Positions 38,434 to 54,429 of a DNA stretch of 64,000 nucleotides are shown here, one piece after another. The DNA is from an uncultured delta proteobacterium (lineage in GTDB: Bacteria; Myxococcota; UBA727; VGSZ01). The notes beneath the pieces are model-generated. The model saw nothing but the letters and a program-made list of their open reading frames with translations, did no database searches and was not told the origin of the DNA. Made by a program: the position numbers and the translations under genes. How positions within the stretch are numbered: the first letter of the stretch is position 1; every line of letters starts with the position of its first letter. The stretch spans positions 320,001-384,000 of the forward strand of contig CAVZJB010000003.1 of assembly GCA_963775425.1 (NCBI GenBank). The letters run 5' to 3'.

Positions 38434-43098
<4,665 letters not shown>

Positions 43099-43105
43099 GT
43101 CTGAC

Positions 43106-43498
43106 TCACTTGGCGATGGTGGAGAGGTGCTTTTCGTAGCCGGCCGCGTCGAGCAGCGTATCGACGTCGGCGGCGTTGTGCGGCTTGACCTTGATCATCC
43201 ACGCCGCCCCGTAGGGATCCTTGTTCACCTGCTCGGGGGCGGCCACGAGCGCCGCGTTCACTTCGACGACGTCGGCGTCGAGCGGCGCGTAGAGATCGCT
43301 GACGGCCTTGACGCTCTCGACGACGCCGAAGGCCTTGCCCTTGGTGAGCTTCTTGCCGGCGTCGGGGAGCTCGACGAACACCACGTCGCCCAGCGCGGCC
43401 TGCGCGTGGTCGGTGACCCCGATGACGACGAGGTCGCCGTCCTTCTTGGCCCACTCGTGCTCCTCGGTGTAGCGGAGGTCCGCGGGAACGTTGCTCAT
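43106..43498 (-). CDS. gcvH: Glycine cleavage H protein
   Basis: [16 protein letters not shown] lipoyl motif. Confidence 0.97.
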
Positions 43499-43510
43499 CG
43501 AATCACTCCT

Positions 43511-44689
43511 TCACGGCTTCGGCGCGCCGACGGGCGGCTTGGTCCCGGCGGCGGCGCGCTTGTAGAACGGCAGCTTCACGACGCGAGCGGCGAGCTTCCG
43601 GCCGCGCACGTCGACGAAGACGGTGCCGCCGGGCTCGGTGTGCGGCTTGTCGATGTAGGCCATCGCCACCGCCTTCTGCAGAAACGGCGCCTGCGTCCCC
43701 GACGTCACCACGCCGATCGGCGCGGCGTCGGCGCCGTCGCCGGCGGTGACGGGGTAGCCGTGGCGCGCGATGCCCCGATCGATCATCTCGATCCCGCGCA
43801 GCAGGCGCCTGGTGCCGGCCGCGCGTTGGGCGTCGAGGGCCTCCTTGCCGATGAAGGCCTTGCCCTTGACGATGAAGCCGAGGTTGGCCTCGAGCGGCGT
43901 GTGCGCGTCGTCGATGTCGTTGCCGTAGAGGCACATGCCGGCCTCGAGGCGGAGGGTGTCCCGGCAGGCGAGGCCGCACGGGGCGACGCCGAAGTCCTTG
44001 CCCGCGGCGAGCACGGCGTCCCACACCATGGGCGCGTTGTTCGCCTCGACGTAGAGCTCGAAGCCGTCCTCGCCGGTGTAGCCCGTGCGGGCGACGAGGG
44101 CGTTTTGGACGACGCCCTGGTTGGTGCGCACGGAGCCGGTGGTGAAGTGGTAGCCGCCGACGGCGCGGACGTCGTCGCCGCAGAGGCGGGCGACGACGTC
44201 GACGGCCTTGGGCCCCTGGACCGCGAGCTGCGCCCAGCCCTCGCCCTCGTCGCGCGCCGTGACGCCGCCCTCGCCGGCGAGGCCGCCGAATTCGGCGCGG
44301 AGCACGCCCTCGACGTGCGCCCAGTCCTTGGCTCGGTTGCCGGCGTTGACCACGACGAGGTAGCGGCGCTCGTTGAAGCGGTAGACGACCACGTCGTCGA
44401 CGAAGGTGCCGTTCGGGTGGAGCATGCCCGCGTACATGGCCTGGCCGTCGGCGATGGCGCGCGGGTCGTTGGTGAAGAGGCGGGCGACGGCGTCGAGCGC
44501 CTTGTCGCCCTCGATGAAGATCTCGCCCATGTGGCTGACGTCGAACACGCCGACGGCGTTGCGCACGGCGAGGTGCTCGGCGCTCTCGGACGTGTACTTG
44601 AGCGGCATCTCGAAGCCGCCGAAGTCGACCATCTTGGCGCCGGCCTCGACGTGCTTTTGGTACAGCGGGGTGCGCTTGAGCGTGCTCAT
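43511..44689 (-). CDS. gcvT: Glycine cleavage aminomethyltransferase T
   Basis: [34 protein letters not shown]. Confidence 0.97.
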
Positions 44690-45537
44690 GTCCGCCTCGC
44701 GTGCGACGTCAGCGTGTTCTGCATGAGCATGGCGATGGTCATCGGGCCCACGCCGCCGGGGACGGGCGTGATGAAGCCGGCCACCTCGGACACCGCGGGA
44801 AAGTCGACGTCGCCGCAGAGCTTGCCGGCGTCGTTGCGGTTCATGCCCACGTCGATGACGACGGCGCCGGGCTTGACGTGCTCGCGCCCGACGACGTTCC
44901 TGCGGCCGACGGCGGCGACGATGACGTCGGCGTCCCGGGTGACGGCCGCGAGGTCCTTGGTCTTGCTGTGGGCCACGGTGACGGTGGCGTCGCGCTGCAG
45001 GAGCAGTTGCAGCATGGGCTTGCCCACGATGTTGCTGCGGCCGATGACGACGGCGCGCGCGCCTCTGAGCTCGACGCCGTGCTCGTCGAGGAGCCGCATG
45101 CAGCCGAGGGGCGTGCAAGGCACGAAGCCGGGGATGCCGAGGGCGAGGCGGGCGACGTTGTCCGGGTGGAAGCCGTCGACGTCCTTGTCGGGGTCGATGG
45201 CGCGCAGGACGAGCGTGGCGTCGATGTGCTTGGGGAGCGGGAGCTGCACCAGGATGCCGTCGACGGTGGGGTCGGCGTTCAGCGACGCCACCAGGGCGAG
45301 CAGCTCCTTGTCGGAGGTCGACGCGGGCAGCTCGTGGTGCAGGCTCACGATGCCGGTCTCGGCGGCGGCCTTGCGCTTGTTCTTGACGTAGGTGTGGCTG
45401 GCGGGGTCTTCGCCGACGAGGACGGTGGCGAGGCCGGGGGCCCGCTTGCCGGCGGCCACGCGGCGTGCGACCTCGTCCTTCACCTCGCCGCGCACCTTCG
45501 CGGAGATCGCTTTGCCGTCGATGATGGTGGCGCTCAT
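44686..45537 (-). CDS. folD: Methylenetetrahydrofolate dehydrogenase/cyclohydrolase
   Basis: [37 protein letters not shown]. Confidence 0.97.
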
Positions 45538-45631
45538 GGCGCCGTCGATGACGCGTGGACGGCACGAACGCAAGGGGCGACGGGGCGCTTGATGCGCCGG
45601 CCTCGCTGAGCGGCGGCGGAGCGGAGGCTAC

Positions 45632-46288
45632 GTGGACGTCCTCGAGGCGATGCGCAAGCGGAACAGCACCCGGGAGTTCAAGCCGGACCCCGTCGACGAG
45701 GCGACGCTGCGCGCCATCCTCGACGCGGCGCGTGAGGCGCCGTCGTGGTCGAACACGCAGCCCTATCTGGTGGCCATGGCGGGCGGCGCGCGCTGCGACG
45801 CCCTGCGCGCCGACATGCTCGCGGCCTACGACACCGCGGTGCCCGACGGCGACTACCCGCTCCTCGTCGAGTACCCGTCGCCGCTCAGGGAGCGCCGCCA
45901 CGCCACCGGTTACGGCCTGTACGCGGCGCTCGGCATCGCCCGCGAGGACAGGGCGGCCCGGGCGGAGCAGTTCAGGAAGAACTTCTCCTTCTTCGGCGCG
46001 CCCGCGGTGATGTTCCTGTTCGCACACGACGCGCTCGGCGTGTACTCGGTGCTCGACGCCGGGCTGTTCCTCGAGGCGCTCTTGCTCGCGGCCACCGCCG
46101 TCGGCGTGAGCACGTGCGCGCAGGCCGCGCTGGCCGGGTTCCCCGACGTCGTGCGCCGCCACTTCCGGGTGCCCGAGCGGTACAAGCTCCTGTGCGGCGT
46201 GTCCCTCGGCTACGCCGTCGAGGGCCGCGTCAACGCCTATCGGCCCGAGCGCCTGTCCGTCGACGAGCTCTTGATCGAGCCGAAGTGA
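45632..46288 (+). CDS. Nitroreductase family protein
   Basis: RNSTREF, APSWSNTQP, FFGAP. Confidence 0.88.
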   Translation: MDVLEAMRKRNSTREFKPDPVDEATLRAILDAAREAPSWSNTQPYLVAMAGGARCDALRADMLAAYDTAVPDGDYPLLVEYPSPLRERRHATGYGLYAALGIAREDRAARAEQFRKNFSFFGAPAVMFLFAHDALGVYSVLDAGLFLEALLLAATAVGVSTCAQAALAGFPDVVRRHFRVPERYKLLCGVSLGYAVEGRVNAYRPERLSVDELLIEPK

Positions 46289-46289
46289 G

Positions 46290-47276
46290 CTACGGCGCGA
46301 GCTCCGCGGCGAGGGCGCCGGCGATGCCGAGGAGGTCGTCCAGCCACAGCCACTCGCCGCCGGCGTTGACTTCGAGGAAGAAGTGCTCGCCCGCGGGGGT
46401 GACGACGAAGTCGGCGGCGCCGTAGCGCAGGCCGAGCTCGTGCACGAGCGCGAGCAGCCCGCGCTCGACGTCACGCGGCAGGCGGTGCGGGCGCCACGCG
46501 TGAAGGAGCGCCACGCCTTCCTCGCGCCAGTCGAGGAGGCCGCCGGCGTCGACGGCGGCGGCGAACACGCGGTCGCCGACCACGGTGGCGCGGACGTCGA
46601 GCGCTTTGTCCACGCGCTCCTGGAACGTCATCGGACACATGCGCAGGCCCCCGAGGTCGTCGAGGTGGTGACGCGCGACGCGGCTCGTGAACACGACGTG
46701 CTCGGCGTCTTGTCGCACCACCGCGAAGCTCGACTGCACCTTGGTGACGATGTCGCCGTCGCACGCGTCATAGAACGCGCGCACGGCGCCGGGCTCGTTG
46801 GACAAGAGCGTCCGCGGCACGGCGAGGCCGAGCGCGGCGGCACGCACGAGCTGAAGCTCCTTGTGGTCACAGCGCCGCACGGCCTCGATGGCGTCGACGT
46901 GCGGGCAGGGCAGCGCCGCGATCATCCCGTGGAGCGCCCGGCGCGCTTCGCCCACGCACGCGTCGCGCAGATCGTCGAGGGCGACGGGCAGGGCGCCGCC
47001 GGCGTGGAAGCGCCGGTGCCACACGGCGCTCACGTCGTCGAGGTCGAAGCGCCCCTCCGGCGTCGTCAACGTGCGCGCCACACCCGGCGCGCGCGACTTC
47101 GCGGGTCGGCCGCCCGTGGCGCGCGCGGAGGGACCGACGCGCGTCGACACCGACACGGCGTCGGGGAACCGATCGGTGTCGAGCCGCAAGAGGGTCGCGC
47201 CCCGGCGAGCGAGCGCGCGGGTGACGCGCTCCACGGCCTCGTCGTCGTCGCTGCGGGTGACGGCCAGGACGGTCAT
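46290..47276 (-). CDS. mvdD: Microviridin-type ATP-grasp macrocyclase, MvdD/MdnC (ester-forming)-like
   Basis: MTVLAVTRSDD, RLDTDRFP, VWHRR, HKELQL, SSFAV...VVFTS, CPMTFQE, LEVNAGGEW. Confidence 0.82.
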   Translation of the reverse strand: MTVLAVTRSDDDEAVERVTRALARRGATLLRLDTDRFPDAVSVSTRVGPSARATGGRPAKSRAPGVARTLTTPEGRFDLDDVSAVWHRRFHAGGALPVALDDLRDACVGEARRALHGMIAALPCPHVDAIEAVRRCDHKELQLVRAAALGLAVPRTLLSNEPGAVRAFYDACDGDIVTKVQSSFAVVRQDAEHVVFTSRVARHHLDDLGGLRMCPMTFQERVDKALDVRATVVGDRVFAAAVDAGGLLDWREEGVALLHAWRPHRLPRDVERGLLALVHELGLRYGAADFVVTPAGEHFFLEVNAGGEWLWLDDLLGIAGALAAELAP

Positions 47277-48331
47277 CGCGCCCCCCGGGGAGACATCGCG
47301 GTCGAAGCGGGGCCGGCGGCGAGCAGGTCCGCGAGGGCGCCGGCGACGTCCAGGCCGGCGTCGCGCTGCAGCCAGCCCCACTCCCCGGCGGGGTTCACCT
47401 CGAAGAACCAGTGCGTGCCGCCGACGTCGACGCCGAGGTCGACGGCGCCGAAGGAGAGCCCCAGCCGCGCCACGAGCGCCGCGCACGCGCGCTCGACGGC
47501 GGCGGGCAGCCGCGCCGCCCGCCACGTCGGGGCGCGCTCGGCGCCGGCCGGGGCGCGGCGCCAGTCGAGCGCTCCGGGAGGGCTCGCGAGCGACGCGGCC
47601 AACACGCGGCGGCCGACGACGACGGCGCGGACGTCGGCGCGCTTTTCGACGCGACGCTGGAAGATCATCGGCGCCGCGCGCAGCGCGTCCAGCGCGGCGG
47701 CGTCGCCCGCGTCGACGGGGCTCGTGCCGACAAAGGGGCCGGCGCCGTCCATGGACTCCGACAGCGGCGCGAGCAGCTTGCACACGACGCGGCCGCCGTC
47801 GGCCTCCACGGCCGCGATGAACGCGCGCGCCTCGCCGGGGTCGTTGGTGACGACGGTCTCCGGCACCGCGAAGCCGGGCACGCCTCGCGCCGCGACGAGC
47901 TGCGCGGCCTTCAGCTCCGCCCGCCGCTGTGCCGCGAGCGGGTTCACGAAGCGCACGCCGAGGTCCTCGAGCAGCGCCAGCATCCCCTCGAACGAGGCGT
48001 CGGCCTGCGCCTCGCAAGCCCCGGCGAAGCGGGCATCGACGTCGAGCGGCGCGCGCGCGGTCCAGATGCGCCGGCACCACACGGCGTGCGTTCGCACGAG
48101 GTCGATCTCGGCGTCGTCGACGGACAACAGCGCGCGGCCGTCGCCGCCCGTCGTCAGCGTGATGTCCGCAGGGAAGCGGTCGGTGTCCACGCGGACCGGC
48201 TCGAGGCCGCGCGCGCGCAAGGCGTCGGCGACGACGTCGGGGACGTAGACGTCGCCGCTGTGCGTGAGGACGAGCACGGTGCGGGGCGCGCCCCCCCGCG
48301 CGCGCCGCGCCCTGCGCCGCGCGGGGCTCAC
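47273..48331 (-). CDS. mvdC: Microviridin-type ATP-grasp macrocyclase, MvdC/MdnB (amide-forming)-like
   Basis: VLVLTHSGD, RVDTDRFP, VWCRRIW, K..QL, PLSESM, PMIFQ, EVNPAGEWGWLQRD; the start could be further downstream. Confidence 0.82.
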   Translation of the reverse strand: MSPARRRARRARGGAPRTVLVLTHSGDVYVPDVVADALRARGLEPVRVDTDRFPADITLTTGGDGRALLSVDDAEIDLVRTHAVWCRRIWTARAPLDVDARFAGACEAQADASFEGMLALLEDLGVRFVNPLAAQRRAELKAAQLVAARGVPGFAVPETVVTNDPGEARAFIAAVEADGGRVVCKLLAPLSESMDGAGPFVGTSPVDAGDAAALDALRAAPMIFQRRVEKRADVRAVVVGRRVLAASLASPPGALDWRRAPAGAERAPTWRAARLPAAVERACAALVARLGLSFGAVDLGVDVGGTHWFFEVNPAGEWGWLQRDAGLDVAGALADLLAAGPASTAMSPRGAR

Positions 48332-49686
48332 GCCGCCGTGACGTCGACGCCGTCGACGAGGACCAGCGGGCAGAGCGTGGCCATGTTCTTGTGCGGCTTC
48401 TCCCCCCACGCCACGAGCTTCTCGAAGCAGTCGAAGACGTTCCCCGCGATGAGCGTCTCTTTCACAGGCGCCGTCTTCTTGCCGTTTTCCACGAGGAAGC
48501 TGCCCTTGGCGACGCCGGAGAAGTCGCCGCTCACGGCGTCGACGTTTCCGGAGAAGCGCCCGACGTAGAGGCCGTTTTTCAGCTCGCGGAAGAGGTCGTC
48601 GTCGCCGGCGGTGCCGCCGGCGACGCGGACGTTGGTGGTGCCGATGGAGGGCAGCGAGCGCGCCGAGCCCTGCGCGTGTCCCGTGGGGCGCCTGCCCGCG
48701 CGGCGCGCGGCCTTGCCGTCGTAGAGGAACGTGTGCAGCACGCCGTCGCCCACGAGGACCGTGCGACGGTGCGGCAGCCCCTCGCGGTCGAAGCTCGCCG
48801 AGCCCAGGCCGCCGGGCACGGTGCCGTCGTCGACCAGCAGGAAGCCCGGCGAGGCGATGCGCTTGCCGAGCTTGTCCTTCAAGCGGCTCTTGCCCTTGAA
48901 GACCGTGTCGCCGTCGACGGCGTCGAAGAGCGTGTCGAGGAACACCTCCTCGAACGCGTCCGGCGAAAACAAGACCTTGCCCTTGTAGGTGATGCCCTCG
49001 CGGGGGTGCAGGAGCGCGAGGACGCGGTCGGCGAAGCGGCGGCTGACGTCGCCGACGTCGATCTCGCCGGCCGTGCGCACGCCGTCGTAGAGGTGGTCGA
49101 AGCTGCCGACCTCGTCGCCGTCGACGGCCATGCCGAACAGCCCGTACGTCGCCGCGGCCTCGCTGGCCGCAGCGGACACGCCCGCCGACGACACCACCGC
49201 GTACACGCTGCTCGACGACGCGAGCTCGGCGTTGTCGACGCTGACCCGCGCGTCCACGCCGCGCGCCTCGTCGAGGAGCGCCACGGTGCTCTCGACCACG
49301 TCTTCGGCGGTGAGGGCGGCGACGTCGTCGTCCCACAGCCCCTGCACCGGGCGCCCCGGGCGGGGCTCCACCATGCCGTTCGCCGCGTCGCCCGGCGAGG
49401 CGTGTGCGATGGCGAGCGCGTCGCCGATGGCGTCGTCGATGGCCTCGTCCGCGAGGCGGTTGACGTAGGCGAAGCCGGAGCGGTCGCCGACGAGCACGCG
49501 GATGCCCACGGCCTCGTGCTCCGCCGTGGACGCGCCCTTGAGCTCGCTCTGCTCCACGTTGGCCGACGTCTGCGTCACGCGCTCCGCGAACGCTTCACAG
49601 CCGGTGGCGCCTCTCTTTTGCGCGCGGCGCACGACGTCGTCGCACAGCTCGCGCAAGCGCCGCTCCACCTCTCCCGTCGTCGTCAT
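48328..49686 (-). CDS. pmbA: TldE/PmbA family protein
   Basis: GIRVLVG.RSGFAY, SASFDREG, TGHA, GDFSG, PVKETLIAGN; no HExxxH. Confidence 0.9.
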   Translation of the reverse strand: MTTTGEVERRLRELCDDVVRRAQKRGATGCEAFAERVTQTSANVEQSELKGASTAEHEAVGIRVLVGDRSGFAYVNRLADEAIDDAIGDALAIAHASPGDAANGMVEPRPGRPVQGLWDDDVAALTAEDVVESTVALLDEARGVDARVSVDNAELASSSSVYAVVSSAGVSAAASEAAATYGLFGMAVDGDEVGSFDHLYDGVRTAGEIDVGDVSRRFADRVLALLHPREGITYKGKVLFSPDAFEEVFLDTLFDAVDGDTVFKGKSRLKDKLGKRIASPGFLLVDDGTVPGGLGSASFDREGLPHRRTVLVGDGVLHTFLYDGKAARRAGRRPTGHAQGSARSLPSIGTTNVRVAGGTAGDDDLFRELKNGLYVGRFSGNVDAVSGDFSGVAKGSFLVENGKKTAPVKETLIAGNVFDCFEKLVAWGEKPHKNMATLCPLVLVDGVDVTAA

Positions 49687-51095
49687 TCCTGGCTCCCATC
49701 GTCCGCGGCGGCGGATTGGCCCGCGAGCGTCACCGTGCAGCGGACGTGCGGGCCGCCGGCGTCGACCTTGGCGGGTTGACCCTTGCCGCAAAAGCCGCTG
49801 CCGAGCTCCCACGCGAACTGGTCGCCGACGGCGTCCACCGACGAGAGCACCTCGAAGGCGTCGCCGGTGATGGTGGTCCCGCGGTGCAGCGGCCCGAGCT
49901 TCCCGTTCTTCACGGGGTAGACCTCACCCACCACGAACATGAACTCCGCGTTGGCGTCGGCCTGGCCGTTCTTGGCGCCGGCGAGCAGGTAGCCGTCGTC
50001 GAGTCCGGCGATCATCTCCTCGAGCGACGCCTTGCCCGGCTCCACGTACGTGTTGCGCATGCGGATGAGCGGCTCGTTGTCGAACTCGAAGGCGCGCGCG
50101 TTGCCCGTGGGCTCCACGCCGAAGCGCTGCGCGCTCTCGCGGTTGTGCAGGTACGAGCGCAGCACGCCGCCCTCGATGATGGTGACCCGCTGCGAGGGGA
50201 CGCCTTCGTCGTCGACGAGGACGACGCCGCCGGCGCCCGCGAGGTGCTCGCTGTCCCCGGAGTCGCACAGCGTGACGAGCTCGCTCGCGACGCGCTTTCC
50301 GATCTTGCCGGCGGCGGCCGACCCGGCGAGGACGAAGTCCGCCTCGACGGTGTGGCCGATGGCCTCGTGGACCAGCAGGCCGACGACGTCGGGCGCGAGG
50401 ATCACCTTTTTCTTGCCGCCGTCGACGTAGCCGGCCCGCAGCAGGTCGGTGGCCGTGCGCACGGCTTTTTCGACCATCTCCTCGGCGGTGCGCCGCGAAA
50501 ACAGGTCGCCGAAGCCGCCGGTGTGGCCCGCGGCCTCGACGCAGGACTGCAGCTCGCCCTCCATGGCCGCGACGGCGCCGACGCGGAGCTCGGGCTTGGT
50601 GTCCTGGATGTGCACCCGGGCGCCGTCCGAGGTGACGATGAACTTTTCGTCGATGAGCTCCGTGTAGCGCGCGCTCGACGACGTGATGGAGCCGCCGCCC
50701 CGCTTGATGAGCTCCTCGGTGCGCAACACGAGGTCGATCTTTTCCTCGAGCAACTTGTCCGAGAGCGGCTGGCGCGCCGGCGAGACGTAGTCGCGGTTCT
50801 GCCACGCCGCGCGCGGCGGGACCTTCAGCCGCTCCTTGCGTCGCGCCGCCGCAGCCTTGGCCGCCAGCCGCGCCGACGCGACCGCGCGTTTCAGGGCCTC
50901 TTTGGTGAGGACGCTGGTGGAGGCGAAGCCCCACGCGCCGTCAACGAGCGCGCGCACCCCGACGCCGGCGTGGTGCGTGGAGCGGGCGGCCTCGAGCTTG
51001 CCGTCCTCGACGAGGATCGAGCGCGAGGTGCGATCATGGTAGCGCAGCTCGAGCCAATCGCCCTGGTCGAGCACGCCTTCGAGGAGATCGTACAT
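49683..51095 (-). CDS. tldD: TldD metalloprotease
   Basis: GVGVRALVDGAWGFAST, HEAIGH, DDEG, TGNAR, IRMRNT, CGKGQ. Confidence 0.93.
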   Translation of the reverse strand: MYDLLEGVLDQGDWLELRYHDRTSRSILVEDGKLEAARSTHHAGVGVRALVDGAWGFASTSVLTKEALKRAVASARLAAKAAAARRKERLKVPPRAAWQNRDYVSPARQPLSDKLLEEKIDLVLRTEELIKRGGGSITSSSARYTELIDEKFIVTSDGARVHIQDTKPELRVGAVAAMEGELQSCVEAAGHTGGFGDLFSRRTAEEMVEKAVRTATDLLRAGYVDGGKKKVILAPDVVGLLVHEAIGHTVEADFVLAGSAAAGKIGKRVASELVTLCDSGDSEHLAGAGGVVLVDDEGVPSQRVTIIEGGVLRSYLHNRESAQRFGVEPTGNARAFEFDNEPLIRMRNTYVEPGKASLEEMIAGLDDGYLLAGAKNGQADANAEFMFVVGEVYPVKNGKLGPLHRGTTITGDAFEVLSSVDAVGDQFAWELGSGFCGKGQPAKVDAGGPHVRCTVTLAGQSAAADDGSQE

Positions 51096-51194
51096 CCCCC
51101 GTGGATAGCCGCGACCGCTGGAGAGCGCCACCCGGGCTCCGGCGGCGGCTGGGCCGAGGGCCTGCGTTCAGGTGACGCCTCACGAGGGTGCGAC

Positions 51195-52559
51195 ATGCAG
51201 GACGCAGTGATCATCGGGGCGGGGCAGGCGGGGCCGTTCCTCGCCGCGCGGCTGGCGGGCGCAGGGCAGAAGGTGACCCTCGTCGACAAGCGCGCGCTGG
51301 GCGGCACGTGCGTCAACGACGGCTGCACACCGACCAAGACCCTCGTCGCCAGCGCGCGCATCGCCTACACCGCGCGCGAGGCCGCGCGCTGGGGCGTGGT
51401 GGTCGGCGACGTGCGCGTCGACATGAAGGCCGTGCGCGCCCGCAAGGACACCGTCGTGGCCGCGTCGCGCGACGGGCTCGACGCGTGGCTCGGGTCGATG
51501 CCGGGCCTCACGCTCGTCCGCGACGCCGCGCGCTTCGTCTCGCCGAACGCCGTGGAGGCTGGCGGGCGACGCATCGAGGGCAAGCGCTTCTTCATCAACA
51601 CCGGCGCGCACCCCGTCGTCCCCGCCGCGCCCGGGCTCGAGGAGGTCTGCCTCACCAACGAGGACGTGATGGACCTCGACGAGGCGCCCGAGCACCTCGT
51701 CGTCGTCGGCTCGAGCTTCGTCGCGCTCGAATTCGCGCAGATCTACCGGCGCTTCGGCAGCCGCGTGACGGTGCTCGCGCGCAGCGGGCGCGTCCTCACC
51801 CACGAGGACGAGGCCGTCGCCGACGTCGTCACGGAGGTATTTGTGCGCGAGGGCATCGAGGTGCGCACGGGGGCGACGGTGGCCCGCGCCGAAAAGACCG
51901 CCGCCGGCGTGCGCGTGCACGTCGCGCGCGGCGGCGTCATCGAGCCGCTCGACGCGAGCCACGTCCTCGTCGCCGCCGGTCGCGCGCCGAACACCGCGGG
52001 CCTCGGCCTCGAGGCGGCGGGGGTGACCGTGGACGCCGCCGGCTACATCCCGGTGAACGACGTGTTGCAAACCAACGTCGAGCACATCTGGGCGCTCGGC
52101 GACGTCAACCGGCGCGGCGCGTTCACGCACACGTCGTACAACGACTACGAGGTGGCCGCCGCCAACCTCCTCGACGGCGCGCACCGCTCCGTCGCGAGCC
52201 GCATCCCCGTGTCGTGCATGTTCGTGGATCCCCCGCTCGGGCGCGTGGGCATGAGCGAGCGCGAGGCGCGCGCATCGGGCAAGAAGATCCTCAAGGGCTT
52301 GCGCCCCATGACGCGCGTGTCCCGCGCGAGCGAGCGCGGCGAGACCGACGGCTTCCTGCAGATCCTCGTCGACGCCGAGACGTCGAAGATCGTCGGAGCC
52401 ACGCTCCTTGGCGTCGAGGCCGACGAGGCCGTGCACGTCATCGCCGCGTTCATGGCGACGGGCGCGCCCTACACGGTGCTGCAGCAGACGGTGCTGTCGC
52501 ACCCGACGGTCTCGGAGCTCATCCCCACCGTCCTCGGAGAGTTGGAGCCGCTCGCGTAG
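51195..52559 (+). CDS. FAD-dependent pyridine nucleotide-disulfide oxidoreductase (MerA/RclA-like, without the C-terminal Cys pair)
   Basis: IGAGQAG, GGTCVNDGCTPTK, ALGD, HPTVSE. Confidence 0.88.
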   Translation: MQDAVIIGAGQAGPFLAARLAGAGQKVTLVDKRALGGTCVNDGCTPTKTLVASARIAYTAREAARWGVVVGDVRVDMKAVRARKDTVVAASRDGLDAWLGSMPGLTLVRDAARFVSPNAVEAGGRRIEGKRFFINTGAHPVVPAAPGLEEVCLTNEDVMDLDEAPEHLVVVGSSFVALEFAQIYRRFGSRVTVLARSGRVLTHEDEAVADVVTEVFVREGIEVRTGATVARAEKTAAGVRVHVARGGVIEPLDASHVLVAAGRAPNTAGLGLEAAGVTVDAAGYIPVNDVLQTNVEHIWALGDVNRRGAFTHTSYNDYEVAAANLLDGAHRSVASRIPVSCMFVDPPLGRVGMSEREARASGKKILKGLRPMTRVSRASERGETDGFLQILVDAETSKIVGATLLGVEADEAVHVIAAFMATGAPYTVLQQTVLSHPTVSELIPTVLGELEPLA

Positions 52560-52561
52560 GA

Positions 52562-53128
52562 CTACGCCTGCGCGCCGCCGGGGACGTTGATGAAGCCCGT
52601 GGGCGAGACGCCGAGGCGGGCGTAGCTCTCCTGCCAGCGTTCATCCATGGGGACGTCGAAGAGGAGCTCGGGGTCGAAGGGCGCGTGGAGCCAGGAGCCC
52701 CGCTCGAGCTCGTCTTCGAGCTGCTGCGGCGCCCAACCGGCGTAGCCGAGCAGGAGGTCAAAGCGGCCGGGGAGCTCGCCGCGGGCGCCGGCCTCGAGGA
52801 TCTCGCGCGAGGGAGAGATGGAGACGGAGGGCGCGACGTCGATGCCCGGGCCGAGCGGCCGGCCGTCGTCGTGCTCGTACAGGACGAAGCCCGAAAACCC
52901 GCTGACCGGCCCACCGATGAGCACCGACCTGTCGTCGATGCCGGGCACGATCTCGAGCTCCTTCAACAGTTGGTGGAGCCGGATCTCGCTCGGGCGGTTG
53001 ACGATGAAGCCCATGGAGCCGCCGGGCTCGTGCACGGCGAGCAAGACGAGGCTTTGGTCGAAGTTGGGGTCCGACAACGGCGGCGGTGCGAGGAGGAACC
53101 CGGGTGCGAGGCGGTCCGTCGTCGACAT
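52562..53128 (-). CDS. YqgE/AlgH family protein
   Basis: DPNF, GFIVNRP, GGPV, LGYAGWAPQQLEDE. Confidence 0.92.
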   Translation of the reverse strand: MSTTDRLAPGFLLAPPPLSDPNFDQSLVLLAVHEPGGSMGFIVNRPSEIRLHQLLKELEIVPGIDDRSVLIGGPVSGFSGFVLYEHDDGRPLGPGIDVAPSVSISPSREILEAGARGELPGRFDLLLGYAGWAPQQLEDELERGSWLHAPFDPELLFDVPMDERWQESYARLGVSPTGFINVPGGAQA

Positions 53129-53194
53129 GAGCAAAGTGTAACAGGTCGCCTCCGAGCGACGCTTCCACACATCGGCGCACCCGGATCCATTTTT

Positions 53195-54334
53195 TCAGGC
53201 GGTGGCGAGCACGCGCGACACCAGCAGCGACGGCGGCGGGCGCACGCCCGCGAGCGTCGGGTGATCGGGGCCCGAACCGAGCCGCGCGAGCACCTGCAAA
53301 CGCTTGCGTGTCTTGGCCGCGGCGTCCTGCAACGCGCCCGCGAACGCATCGTCGTCCAGCGCCGTCGCCGCCGACGCCGTGGCAAAGATGCCCCCCTCGT
53401 CGAGGAGCTTCAGGCACAACCCGGCGTGTTCCCCGGCGCGCGCGAGCGCGGTCTCGACGTCGTCGTCGGCGGCGGGCTGGGGGTGGAACACCACGACATC
53501 GAAGCGCGGCCGCACCTCGCTCTCGGCACGCAGCCAGGCGAGCGGGTCGGCCTCGACGCGATCGAGCCGCGTGTCGATGTCGTTGTGCCTGGCGTCCTCC
53601 TCGGCGAACGACGAGAGCACCGGCGCCTCGTCGACGAGCACCACCTCGGCGGCGCCGCCCTCGGCGAGCTGCAGGCCGTAGCCGCAGAAGCCGGCGTAGA
53701 GATCGAGGCAGCGCCCGCGCGCCCAGCGGCGGACCGCGCGCTGCCGCTCGAGGTCGGCGGTGAGGCGCCGCGCCCCGGGCGTGGCGAGGTCGACGGCGAG
53801 CTCGAGGCGGCCGTGCACGAAGCGCACGCACGGATCGGTGCCCTTCACCAGCGTGACCTCGTCGGCGCGGGCGACGGCGACCGTGGTGGCGGCGGTGCGC
53901 TCGACGAGGAGCGGCAGCACCTCGTTGACCACCTTGCCCATCGGCGGGCAGTCGACGGCGATGAGGAGCCCCGAGCCGAAGCGGTCGACGAACAGCCCGG
54001 GGATGCCGTCGCCCTCCCCATGGCAGATGCGGCCGGCGTCGCTGCCCTCGAGGTCGGTCTCGCGCCGGGCGAGGGCGCGCTCGAGCCGCGCGTGGATGAG
54101 GCCGACGGGATCGCGCGTGCGCGCCGACGACAGCAACCGGATGGTGGCGGGGCCGGTGGGGTCGTACAGCGCCGTCCCCATCGGCAGCGAGGTCTCGTCG
54201 ACGAGGTCCACGAACGGGCCGCCGTCGCCGTCGTAGCGGACGACGTCGTCCCGGTGCAGCCACGGCCAGCCGCGCTGCGCGCGGCGCAGACCCTTCCTCG
54301 TGACGATGGCGCTGCCGGTGACCTCGATTGGCAC
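53195..54334 (-). CDS. RlmI-like PUA + SAM-methyltransferase-fold protein (degenerate)
   Basis: RGWPWL, HGEGDGIPGLFVDRFG, LDLYAG, GPDHP. Confidence 0.75.
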   Translation of the reverse strand: MPIEVTGSAIVTRKGLRRAQRGWPWLHRDDVVRYDGDGGPFVDLVDETSLPMGTALYDPTGPATIRLLSSARTRDPVGLIHARLERALARRETDLEGSDAGRICHGEGDGIPGLFVDRFGSGLLIAVDCPPMGKVVNEVLPLLVERTAATTVAVARADEVTLVKGTDPCVRFVHGRLELAVDLATPGARRLTADLERQRAVRRWARGRCLDLYAGFCGYGLQLAEGGAAEVVLVDEAPVLSSFAEEDARHNDIDTRLDRVEADPLAWLRAESEVRPRFDVVVFHPQPAADDDVETALARAGEHAGLCLKLLDEGGIFATASAATALDDDAFAGALQDAAAKTRKRLQVLARLGSGPDHPTLAGVRPPPSLLVSRVLATA

Positions 54335-54429
54335 GAAGAGATCATAGCGCGGGGCGCCGGCGTCGACACTGCCGGCCACTCCGCGCCGGCGAAGCCGGTC
54401 CGGTAGGCCGAGCCGATAGAGGCGTGGTA

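What the first reader, a model, noticed from the sequence alone, without database searches (positions are those of the whole stretch)
46290..51095. TldD/TldE protease in one operon with both microviridin-type ATP-grasp macrocyclases: candidate graspetide leader-removal system
Seen: four minus-strand genes, tldD, tldE, mvdC/mdnB-like and mvdD/mdnC-like, each joined by a 4-bp start/stop overlap (49683-49686, 48328-48331, 47273-47276). TldD keeps HEAIGH and the C-terminal CGKGQ Cys. Known: MdnB/MdnC build the lactam and lactone rings of microviridins, and E. coli TldDE removes the microcin B17 leader by processive N-terminal trimming. To my knowledge canonical microviridin clusters encode no dedicated leader protease. 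Inference: TldDE here may trim the unstructured leader until it reaches the macrocyclic core, forming a protease-plus-cyclase RiPP maturation module.
Basis: partly seen in the sequence, partly recalled or inferred. Interest (0 to 1): 0.85.

Follow-up and report, generated by a model that had tools for sequence, protein, structure and literature searches.

The report
TldDE protease fused to microviridin ligases
The four genes really do form one tight block, but sister genomes show the protease pair is a resident of this chromosomal spot with or without the peptide-cyclising enzymes, so a dedicated leader-trimming role is possible but not supported.

Summary
Observation confirmed. On the minus strand tldD (49683-51095), tldE (48328-49686), an MdnB/MvdC-like ligase (47273-48331) and an MdnC/MvdD-like ligase (46290-47276) are packed with 4-bp overlaps; the tldE/ligase overlap depends on which GTG is the start.

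Interpretation only partly supported.
- For it: the genome has three tldDE pairs, so this is not the sole housekeeping copy, and the ligases are microviridin-type, not RimK-type.
- Against it: three sister genomes carry the same folD-nitroreductase-tldE-tldD-algH block with no ligases in it. TldD orthologues (61-79% identity) occur in relatives with no such ligase.
- Two same-order relatives have the ligases near tldDE, but an opposite-strand oxoprolinase gene separates them.
- TldD/E lay in the fetched flanks of 0 of 49 further Myxococcota ligase loci and 2 of 80 best loci across 185,579 species. Those two are the same two relatives.

The window holds no precursor. The only microviridin cores in the genome (two) sit in a 367-aa protein on another contig.

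Best reading (0.6): a historical juxtaposition by local gene loss, probably co-transcribed, with no dedicated partnership. By-product: this family carries core-less proteins ending in the PFFARFL leader motif.

The parts
49683..51095 (-). tldD, 470 aa, catalytic subunit of an M103-type metalloprotease (HEAIGH, C-terminal GFCGKGQ)
   Evidence: Translation. Pfam PmbA_TldD domains 1, 2 and 3 at E 8e-18, 2e-10 and 1e-57. NCBIfam TldD models score 295 and 191 bits, both below their equivalog cut-offs of 635 and 513. Best solved relative is E. coli TldD 5nj5, E 9e-51, with HExxxH and CGK aligned.
48328..49686 (-). tldE/pmbA, 452 aa, non-catalytic partner (no HExxxH)
   Evidence: Translation. Pfam PmbA_TldD domains 1 and 3 at E 5e-14 and 4e-64. 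NCBIfam PmbA scores 127 bits, below the cut-off of 438. The ATGA overlap with tldD is read.
47273..48331 (-). ATP-grasp ligase 1, MdnB/MvdC-like (predicted lactam-forming), 352 aa from GTG 48331 or 334 aa from GTG 48277
   Evidence: Pfam MvdD pre-ATP-grasp domain, E 3e-22. Best NCBIfam model is TIGR04185 MvdC at 252 bits, below the cut-off of 425. Best PDB hit is 5ig8, E 3e-59. N-terminus compared with orthologues.
46290..47276 (-). ATP-grasp ligase 2, MdnC/MvdD-like (predicted lactone-forming), 328 aa
   Evidence: Pfam MvdD pre-ATP-grasp domain, E 2e-25. Best NCBIfam model is TIGR04184 MvdD at 330 bits, below the cut-off of 475. Best PDB hit is 5ig9 (MdnC), E 6e-70. MdnC E191/D192 align to H203/H204.
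51096..51194 (.). 99-bp divergent intergenic region upstream of tldD, the only room for the block's promoter
   Evidence: Sequence. The plus-strand gene starts at ATG 51195. No sigma-70-like site was found, which is uninformative.
45632..46288 (+). Context: nitroreductase-family gene, convergent on ligase 2 with a 1-bp gap
   Evidence: Pfam Nitroreductase, E 5e-25. In G002, G004 and G006 the same gene abuts tldE directly.
51195..52559 (+). Context: FAD pyridine-nucleotide-disulphide oxidoreductase, divergent from tldD. It is missing from this position in the relatives examined.
   Evidence: Pfam Pyr_redox_2, E 2e-56. No hit to it in L040, L042 or L058-L060.
44686..45573 (-). Context: folD, left anchor of the conserved syntenic block, with gcvT, gcvH and gcvP beyond it
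   Evidence: Pfam; synteny.
52562..53170 (-). Context: algH-like DUF179 gene, right anchor of the conserved syntenic block, followed by a PUA methyltransferase at 53195-54379
   Evidence: Pfam; synteny.

Best explanation
The block joins two units with separate histories. Unit 1 is tldD-tldE, a zinc metalloprotease pair. It is a lineage-specific third paralogue and a stable resident of the folD...algH chromosomal block in this Myxococcota family. Unit 2 is the ligase half (MdnB-like then MdnC-like) of a microviridin-type graspetide cassette. In same-order relatives that cassette lies at the same chromosomal place, but it has its own multi-core precursor (G013) and is separated from tldE by an opposite-strand oxoprolinase gene. 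In this genome the oxoprolinase and the precursor are missing from the locus, so the ligase genes directly follow tldE and are probably read from the tldD promoter. The ligases most likely still work. Their likely substrate is a 367-aa protein on contig C2 that carries the genome's only two TxKYPSDxED cores, in which they would build the lactone and lactam cage. TldDE is most likely a general peptide-degrading protease whose link to the ligases is positional. Shown: the gene identities, the packing, the synteny, the paralogue count and the remote precursor. Inferred: co-transcription, the direction of the rearrangement, ligase activity on the remote protein, and the lack of a dedicated partnership.
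For: (1) G002, G004 and G006 (same family) carry gcvT-folD-nitroreductase-tldE-tldD-algH-PUA methyltransferase. Their TldD is 78-80% and their TldE 67-69% identical to the window's, and the block holds no ligase; their only ligase (about 41% identity) is on another contig. (2) Thirteen of 60 relatives have a TldD orthologue of 61-79% identity; the next best hits are at most 35%. Three of the 13 (G003, G007, G009) gave no ligase match at E 1e-10. In G005 the orthologue and both ligase pairs lie on different contigs of 21-204 kb. (3) G013 and G017 read folD-ligase2-ligase1-(precursor)-oxoprolinase(+)-tldE-tldD-algH, so the two units are convergent or divergent neighbours, not one operon. (4) Surveys with six TldD/E queries found hits in the fetched flanks of 0 of 49 further Myxococcota ligase loci (0 of 36 with at least 5 kb on both sides), 2 of 16 loci of near relatives, and 2 of 80 best loci of genome contigs. 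The last two show the same gene order and contig lengths as G013 and G017. (5) Five of 5 Myxococcaceae-family genomes with complete cassettes have only 33-37% identical TldD, far from the cassette. (6) In a quick tree the three linked ligases fall in one 8-row group (SH-aLRT 88), so the linkage can be a single inherited state. (7) Adjacent core motifs occur at 41 of 49 and 68 of 80 ligase loci, but none occurs in the 64-kb window. No oxoprolinase homologue was found in G000.
Against: The packing is tighter than a random deletion would be expected to leave: 4-bp overlaps, or at most a ~50-bp gap. The linkage, though loose, spans three families of one order (G000, G013, G017). This tldDE is an extra paralogue beside a generic pair, which is what a recruited enzyme would look like. 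The long precursors of this clade would need much proteolysis. The direction of change, loss in the sister genus versus gain here, is not resolved. Many surveyed contigs are short.
Confidence: 0.6

Rival explanations
1. One reading: this TldDE paralogue has been recruited as the processing protease of the graspetide pathway. It would thread the free N-terminus of the cyclised precursor and chew until the cage blocks it. The operon fusion in this genome would be the end point of that recruitment.
For: Co-directional, overlapping genes. It is a third, lineage-specific paralogue. TldDE lies within 3.6-5.4 kb of the ligases in G013 and G017. TldD keeps its catalytic motif. TldD/E is known to mature other RiPPs and occurs inside pearlin clusters (PMC10885120, passages).
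Against: The orthologue persists without the ligases. TldD/E was found in the fetched flanks of 0 of 49 and 2 of 80 other loci. Related cassettes function in genomes lacking this orthologue. The candidate substrates carry about 220 residues of predicted helical sequence before the cores and about 100 residues after them. An N-terminal trimmer that stalls at the first cage could not free later cores or remove the C-terminal part; this last point is inference from the published pencil-sharpener model.
Confidence: 0.22
2. The ligase pair is a relic on its way out. After the adjacent precursor was lost, the two genes are no longer used, and the sister genus has already lost them.
For: No precursor in the window. 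The window's ligase 2 sits on a long end branch, 0.7 against a median of 0.1, with atypical composition. The MdnC leader-recognition residues E191/D192 are replaced by His-His (residues named in PMC12848669, passage). GC rises to 0.75-0.78 over the ligases. G002, G004 and G006 lack them at this locus.
Against: Both reading frames are intact, with high third-position GC. Both keep all 36 columns that are invariant in a 17-sequence alignment. A remote core-bearing protein is kept and is collinear with orthologues in G005 and G010. Remote precursors also accompany precursor-less ligase loci in G005, G012 and G017.
Confidence: 0.1
3. TldDE is functionally tied to the pathway, but as a clean-up or turnover protease. 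It would degrade unmodified precursor, spent leader or stand-alone leader proteins rather than make the mature product.
For: E. coli TldDE degrades unfolded peptides and has other cellular roles (PMC10885120, passages). The family carries separate leader-motif proteins that would need turnover.
Against: The same comparative evidence as for the first rival applies. No direct evidence exists.
Confidence: 0.06

Closest known systems
Microviridin biosynthesis: MdnA/MdnB/MdnC of Microcystis and MvdC/MvdD/MvdE of Planktothrix (graspetide group 1)
   Same: There are two pre-ATP-grasp ligases in the order B-like then C-like. Their best solved relatives are 5ig8 and 5ig9. The core motif TxKYPSDx(D/E)(D/E) is found in the genome's remote candidate and in relatives' adjacent precursors. 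The PFFARFL leader motif is present in relatives.
   Different: No precursor, acetyltransferase or transporter lies beside the ligases. Both ligases score below the NCBIfam equivalog cut-offs. E191/D192 of MdnC are not kept. The candidate substrate is a 367-aa protein with the cores in its middle. The gene names and ring chemistry of MdnB and MdnC are recalled, apart from the 5IG9 = MdnC statement in PMC12848669.
E. coli TldD/TldE (MEROPS M103), which matures microcin B17, klebsazolicin and a microcin C analogue
   Same: Adjacent tldD-tldE genes. HExxxH and the C-terminal Cys are in TldD only. E 9e-51 to PDB 5nj5.
   Different: The E. coli pair is the single housekeeping copy and is not linked to the RiPP genes (PMC10885120, passages). 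Here it is one of three pairs, 32-33% identical to the genome's generic TldD, and physically fused to RiPP ligases.
TldD/E homologues encoded inside pearlin (ammosamide-type) clusters
   Same: A TldD/E-type protease gene inside or beside a RiPP cluster (PMC10885120, passages; PMC12424672, search listing only).
   Different: It is a different RiPP class. There the protease belongs to the cluster; here the protease stays when the ligases are missing.
Myxococcota microviridin-type clusters: myxomiditide myx cluster, and the conserved 'microviridin' BGCs of Archangium, Cystobacter and Sorangium
   Same: Same phylum and same ligase family. Multi-core precursors with PFFxRFx and TxKxPSDx(D/E)(D/E) motifs (PMC12848669, passages; PMC12766979, table passage; own loci).
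   Different: Those clusters keep the precursor next to the ligases, and no TldD/E is mentioned (0 occurrences of 'TldD' in PMC12766979). In PMC12848669 I searched for 'protease' and 'peptidase', not for TldD itself, but the library-wide search for microviridin plus TldD did not return that paper.

Membership tests
TldD (M103 metalloprotease, catalytic subunit) | Three PmbA_TldD domains | tested here: met
   Pfam PF01523, PF19290 and PF19289 all score above their cut-offs.
TldD (M103 metalloprotease, catalytic subunit) | HExxxH zinc motif and C-terminal Cys ligand | tested here: met
   HEAIGH and GFCGKGQ align to the same motifs of 5nj5.
TldD (M103 metalloprotease, catalytic subunit) | NCBIfam equivalog score | tested here: not met
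   NF040952 scores 295 bits against a cut-off of 635; NF008006 scores 191 against 513. It is a divergent family member, not an equivalog of either model.
TldE/PmbA partner | Adjacent paralogue lacking the catalytic motif | tested here: met
   Pfam domains 1 and 3. No HExxxH in the translation. Heterodimer formation was not tested.
MvdD/MdnC (lactone-forming microviridin ligase) | MvdD pre-ATP-grasp domain, with closest solved relative MdnC | tested here: met
   PF21068, E 2e-25; 5ig9, E 6e-70.
MvdD/MdnC (lactone-forming microviridin ligase) | NCBIfam TIGR04184 equivalog cut-off | tested here: not met
   330 bits against a cut-off of 475.
MvdD/MdnC (lactone-forming microviridin ligase) | Leader-recognition residues Glu191/Asp192 of MdnC | tested here: not met
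   They align to His203/His204. The residues are named in PMC12848669 (passage).
MvdC/MdnB (lactam-forming microviridin ligase) | Best family and structure match, and the equivalog cut-off | tested here: inconclusive
   The best model is TIGR04185, but at 252 bits against a cut-off of 425. The best PDB hit is 5ig8, E 3e-59.
Microviridin-type gene cluster | Precursor with a TxKYPSDx(D/E)(D/E) core next to the ligases | tested here: not met
   No core or leader motif in any frame of the 64-kb window, against 41 of 49 and 68 of 80 other loci that have one.
Microviridin precursor (Pfam Inhibitor_I10), for the remote C2 protein | Pfam score and core motif | tested here: met
   PF12559 scores 25 bits against a cut-off of 21. 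Its two cores are the only matches to K[YFW]PSD..[DE] in the 8.26-Mb genome.
Microviridin precursor (Pfam Inhibitor_I10), for the remote C2 protein | PFFxRFL leader motif upstream of the cores | tested here: not met
   Only IVQRFLDG is present, conserved as IVQGFLDG in G005 and G010, about 150 residues before the cores.
Cluster-encoded dedicated RiPP leader protease | Protease gene co-occurs with the modifying enzymes across relatives and is missing where they are missing | tested here: not met
Cluster-encoded dedicated RiPP leader protease | Cleaves the modified precursor | not testable with these tools
   Needs biochemistry.

The most novel reading that the evidence does not exclude
In this Myxococcota family the microviridin pathway may be split over at least three loci. 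(i) The two ligases are fused behind a lineage-specific TldDE pair. (ii) Protein-sized substrates carry 2-5 cores between a helical N-terminal part and a C-terminal domain, without the canonical leader. (iii) Stand-alone proteins of about 130-170 aa end in PFFAR(F/Y)L and would switch the ligases on in trans. TldDE would then be the enzyme that cuts the large modified proteins or the used leader proteins down.
Probability: 0.12. Interest if true: 0.8.

Novelty: new variant of a known kind. Interest (0 to 1): 0.35.

Why it matters
If TldDE were a cluster-encoded graspetide protease, it would fill the long-noted gap of how microviridin leaders are removed. The comparative evidence here argues against reading that from gene order alone. 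It is also a worked case of an apparent RiPP operon that is better explained by locus history. What remains of interest is the organisation of the pathway in this family: ligases without a neighbouring precursor, protein-sized core carriers elsewhere in the genome, and conserved core-less leader-motif proteins. That arrangement would be a natural counterpart of the in-trans leader activation so far shown only in vitro (recalled; the Reyna-Gonzalez 2016 title was seen only in a reference list).

Tried and rejected
- RNA evidence for co-transcription: no sequencing run was listed for window 46200-51200.
- Promoter and terminator scan of 45500-51700: no promoter-like site, and one terminator-like site on the wrong strand inside tldE. 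Uninformative.
- Earlier notes of this scan: none near the place, and none holding TldD together with graspetide terms.
- Ramesh et al. 2021 (PMC8688276) is not held.
- Supplements are closed. The co-occurrence tables of Carter et al. 2026 (PMC13097080) and Makarova et al. 2022 (PMC8939145) could list PmbA/TldD families at low frequency; I could not see them. Their main texts have 0 occurrences of PmbA (both), and of TldD and TldE in Makarova. Library searches for TldD with graspetide, ATP-grasp or microviridin returned only the review PMC10885120 and an ammosamide preprint.
- My first crude GC3 gene list missed genes embedded in long ORFs and was replaced by a frame plot.
- The plus-strand gene at 51188 was first translated in the wrong frame and gave 0 families. 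It was redone from 51195.
- Nitroreductase as a McbC-like partner: rejected. It is convergent and sits beside tldE in sister genomes that have no ligases.
- A second TldDE link: in G005 a leader-only ORF lies 5 kb from the generic TldDE. Rejected as coincidence, because opposite-strand genes lie between them and the two are on different contigs in G000.
- The careful tree search did not finish in 300 s, so the quick IQ-TREE tree was used.
- No structure or complex prediction was run, because no binding claim is made.
Full report
OBSERVATION. The window is about 72% G+C, and long ORFs occur in all frames. I therefore fixed the genes by translation, a third-position GC frame plot and family searches.

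Four minus-strand genes fill 46290-51095 without gaps:
- tldD, 49683-51095.
- tldE, 48328-49686.
- ATP-grasp ligase 1, 47273-48331.
- ATP-grasp ligase 2, 46290-47276.

The ATGA, GTGA and ATGA junctions are read directly. One junction is uncertain. The conserved body of ligase 1 begins at residue 18-19, where a second GTG lies at 48277, and orthologues start about there. The tldE/ligase-1 junction is therefore either a 4-bp overlap or a gap of about 50 bp.

IDENTITIES.
- TldD has all three PmbA_TldD domains, and TldE has domains 1 and 3.
- TldD carries HEAIGH and GFCGKGQ. Both align to the zinc motif and the Cys of E. coli TldD, PDB 5nj5, at E 9e-51.
- TldE has no HExxxH.
- Both ligases carry the MvdD pre-ATP-grasp domain.
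- Ligase 1 matches the MvdC model best (252 bits) and PDB 5ig8 (E 3e-59).
- Ligase 2 matches the MvdD model best (330 bits) and PDB 5ig9, MdnC (E 6e-70).
- RimK-type models score only 34-41 bits.
- All four proteins fall below the NCBIfam equivalog cut-offs. They are family members, not strict equivalogs.

SURROUNDINGS.
- Downstream, a nitroreductase gene (45632-46288, plus strand) converges on ligase 2. Beyond it lie folD, gcvT, gcvH and gcvP.
- Upstream, 99 bp separate tldD from a divergent FAD oxidoreductase gene (51195-52559). An algH-like gene and a PUA methyltransferase follow.
- No reading frame of the 64-kb window holds a microviridin core or leader motif.

THE GENOME. The assembly (8.26 Mb, 18 contigs, 94.55% complete) holds three tldD/tldE pairs. 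One is this pair; the other two are on contig C16 and are 31-33% identical to this TldD. The genome has only this one pair of MvdD-type ligases.

SYNTENY: THE DECISIVE EVIDENCE. Thirteen of 60 relatives have a TldD of 61-79% identity; the next best hits are at most 35%.

- In G002, G004 and G006 (same family) this orthologue lies in gcvT-folD-nitroreductase-tldE-tldD-algH-PUA methyltransferase. That is the window's block minus the two ligases and minus the FAD oxidoreductase (in G004 the contig ends after tldD). Their only ligase, about 41% identical, is on another contig.
- G003, G007 and G009 have the TldD orthologue but gave no ligase match at E 1e-10.
- G005 has it on a contig different from both of its ligase pairs.
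- Only G013 and G017, from two other families of the same order, have the ligases near tldDE. There the order is folD-ligase2-ligase1-(precursor in G013)-oxoprolinase on the opposite strand-tldE-tldD-algH. In G017 folD itself was not found in the stretch fetched.
- G000 has no oxoprolinase homologue that I could find.

The simplest history is that the cassette and tldDE were neighbours in a conserved block. This genome then lost the intervening oxoprolinase and precursor, and the sister genus lost the ligases. The opposite direction, insertion of the ligases here, is not excluded.

WIDER SURVEYS.
- Of 401 Myxococcota genomes, 60 have an MvdD-like match at E 1e-40.
- I examined loci from 59 of them. 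G012's 1.1-kb contig was left out.
- Queries were six TldD/E sequences taken from all three own pairs.
- TldD/E lay in the fetched flanks at 0 of 49 further loci (0 of 36 with at least 5 kb on both sides) and at 2 of 16 loci of near relatives, namely G013 and G017.
- Among the best 80 of 561 ligase loci found in one genome for each of 185,579 species, 2 of 80 have TldD/E. These show the same gene order and contig lengths as G013 and G017.
- Five of 5 Myxococcaceae-family genomes with complete cassettes have only a 33-37% identical TldD, hundreds of kilobases away where both lie on one contig.
- In a quick maximum-likelihood tree of 69 ligase-2 homologues, the three linked cases fall in one 8-row group (SH-aLRT 88) together with five unlinked ones. 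They need not be independent events. The window's sequence sits on a long branch, 0.7 against a median of 0.1. The careful search did not finish.

THE SUBSTRATE.
- G013's adjacent precursor is a 490-codon ORF with PFFARFL and ten TxK(Y/F/A)PSDxED cores.
- Myxococcaceae precursors have an N-terminal domain, PFFxRFL and many cores.
- In G000, the only matches to K[YFW]PSD..[DE] in all six frames of the genome are two cores, TIKYPSDEED and TSMKYPSDNED. They lie 23 codons apart in one 367-aa ORF on contig C2. My rough estimate of chance matches to this motif in the six-frame translation is under one.
- That ORF passes Pfam Inhibitor_I10 at 25 bits against a cut-off of 21.
- It is collinear with orthologues in G005 and G010. 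These lack PFFxRFL but share IVQ(G/R)FLDG, and they carry a C-terminal domain that is N-terminal in Myxococcaceae precursors.
- Its neighbours show nothing related to RiPP biosynthesis.
- Remote precursors also accompany the precursor-less ligase loci of G005, G012 and G017.
- Ligase 2 has His-His where MdnC has the leader-recognition residues Glu191/Asp192 (residues named in PMC12848669).

A BY-PRODUCT. G000 contig C8 encodes a protein ending ...PLPFFARYLVKQDGLRRQR, with no core after it. G005, G008 and G010 have similar ORFs ending PFFARFLEHQKR. A search of 5.8 billion proteins, in which only the 8000 best word-sharing candidates of 92-294 residues were scored, found two more, of 134 and 157 aa, ending PFFARYLVPQRR and PFFARFLAHQRR. 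That makes seven core-less proteins with the leader motif at the C-terminus. The C8 protein aligns weakly to the leader part of G013-type precursors (E 2e-6 in a six-sequence database). They may act as leaders in trans; that is conjecture.

LITERATURE.
- A review of RiPP leader proteases (PMC10885120, passages) describes TldD/E for microcin B17, klebsazolicin, a microcin C analogue and pearlin clusters. For graspetides it lists only PCATs.
- Makarova et al. 2022 (PMC8939145, term search of the main text) has no TldD, TldE or PmbA.
- Carter et al. 2026 (PMC13097080, abstract and passages) analysed co-occurrence for more than 20,000 predicted graspetides. For group 1 they report AMP-binding and alpha/beta-hydrolase proteins; PmbA has 0 occurrences.
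- Library searches for TldD with graspetide, ATP-grasp or microviridin gave nothing further.
- Microviridin-type clusters are known in Myxococcota (PMC12848669 and PMC12766979, passages).
- Supplements could not be read.

MECHANISM AND VERDICT. Most likely (0.6), the block is a juxtaposition of a resident general protease pair and the ligase half of a microviridin cassette, brought together by local gene loss and probably co-transcribed from the region upstream of tldD. The ligases probably still cyclise the remote two-core protein.

A recruited processing role for TldDE (0.22) is not excluded. It is weakened in two ways. First, the orthologue persists without ligases and was not found beside nearly all related cassettes. 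Second, the substrates are awkward for it: an N-terminal trimmer stalls at the first cage, and the candidate substrates carry long flanks on both sides of the cores. This second point is inference.

The remaining rivals are decay of the ligases (0.1) and a clean-up role for TldDE (0.06).

The arrangement is a new variant of a known kind. Interest is modest for the TldDE claim (0.35). The split organisation with stand-alone leader-motif proteins deserves its own follow-up.

Noticed in passing
G000 contig C8, L057:1480-1986 (-); also L199:1498-2064 (-), L200:1147-1551 (+), L202:1120-1545 (+); proteins P0007 and P0008: A small family of core-less proteins (about 130-170 aa) ends in the microviridin leader motif PFFAR(F/Y)L plus 4-11 residues. 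There are seven members, in G000, G005, G008 and G010 and in two metagenome proteins. They could be natural trans-acting leaders for the ligases.
   Followed up: partly
G000 contig C2, L067:9900-11003 (-); orthologues L209:1205-2827 (+) and L205:550-2298 (+): Protein-sized core carriers with three parts: a helical N-terminal part with a conserved IVQ(G/R)FLDG, 2-5 TxKxPSDxED cores, and a C-terminal domain of about 100 aa (GQRF...DPN...F..RTGG.AG). The same domain is N-terminal in Myxococcaceae precursors (L071, L072, L077, L095). It has a further copy at G000 C11:106062-106331. It has no Pfam family.
   Followed up: partly
L042:11246-12718 (-), L050:2600-4060 (-), L071-L074 and L095 upstream of the ligases: Myxococcota relatives carry very large multi-core microviridin-type precursors, with 10-16 cores separated by Gly-rich linkers and long leaders of 150-250 aa.
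   Followed up: partly
window 46500-48500: G+C rises to 0.75-0.78 over the two ligase genes, against 0.70-0.73 in the flanks. The window's ligase 2 has an unusually long tree branch and atypical amino-acid composition.
   Followed up: partly
window 40258-45573 and 51195-52559: A glycine-cleavage set (gcvP, gcvH, gcvT) with folD lies just downstream of the block. The FAD disulphide oxidoreductase inserted between tldD and algH could be an L-protein-like dehydrogenase. It is missing from this position in the relatives examined.
   Followed up: no
L073 and L082 (genome-contig loci): Two ligase loci labelled Rokubacteria and Arenicellales group with the G013/G017 ligases in the quick tree (SH-aLRT 98). 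This suggests either transfer or mis-binned contigs.
   Followed up: no
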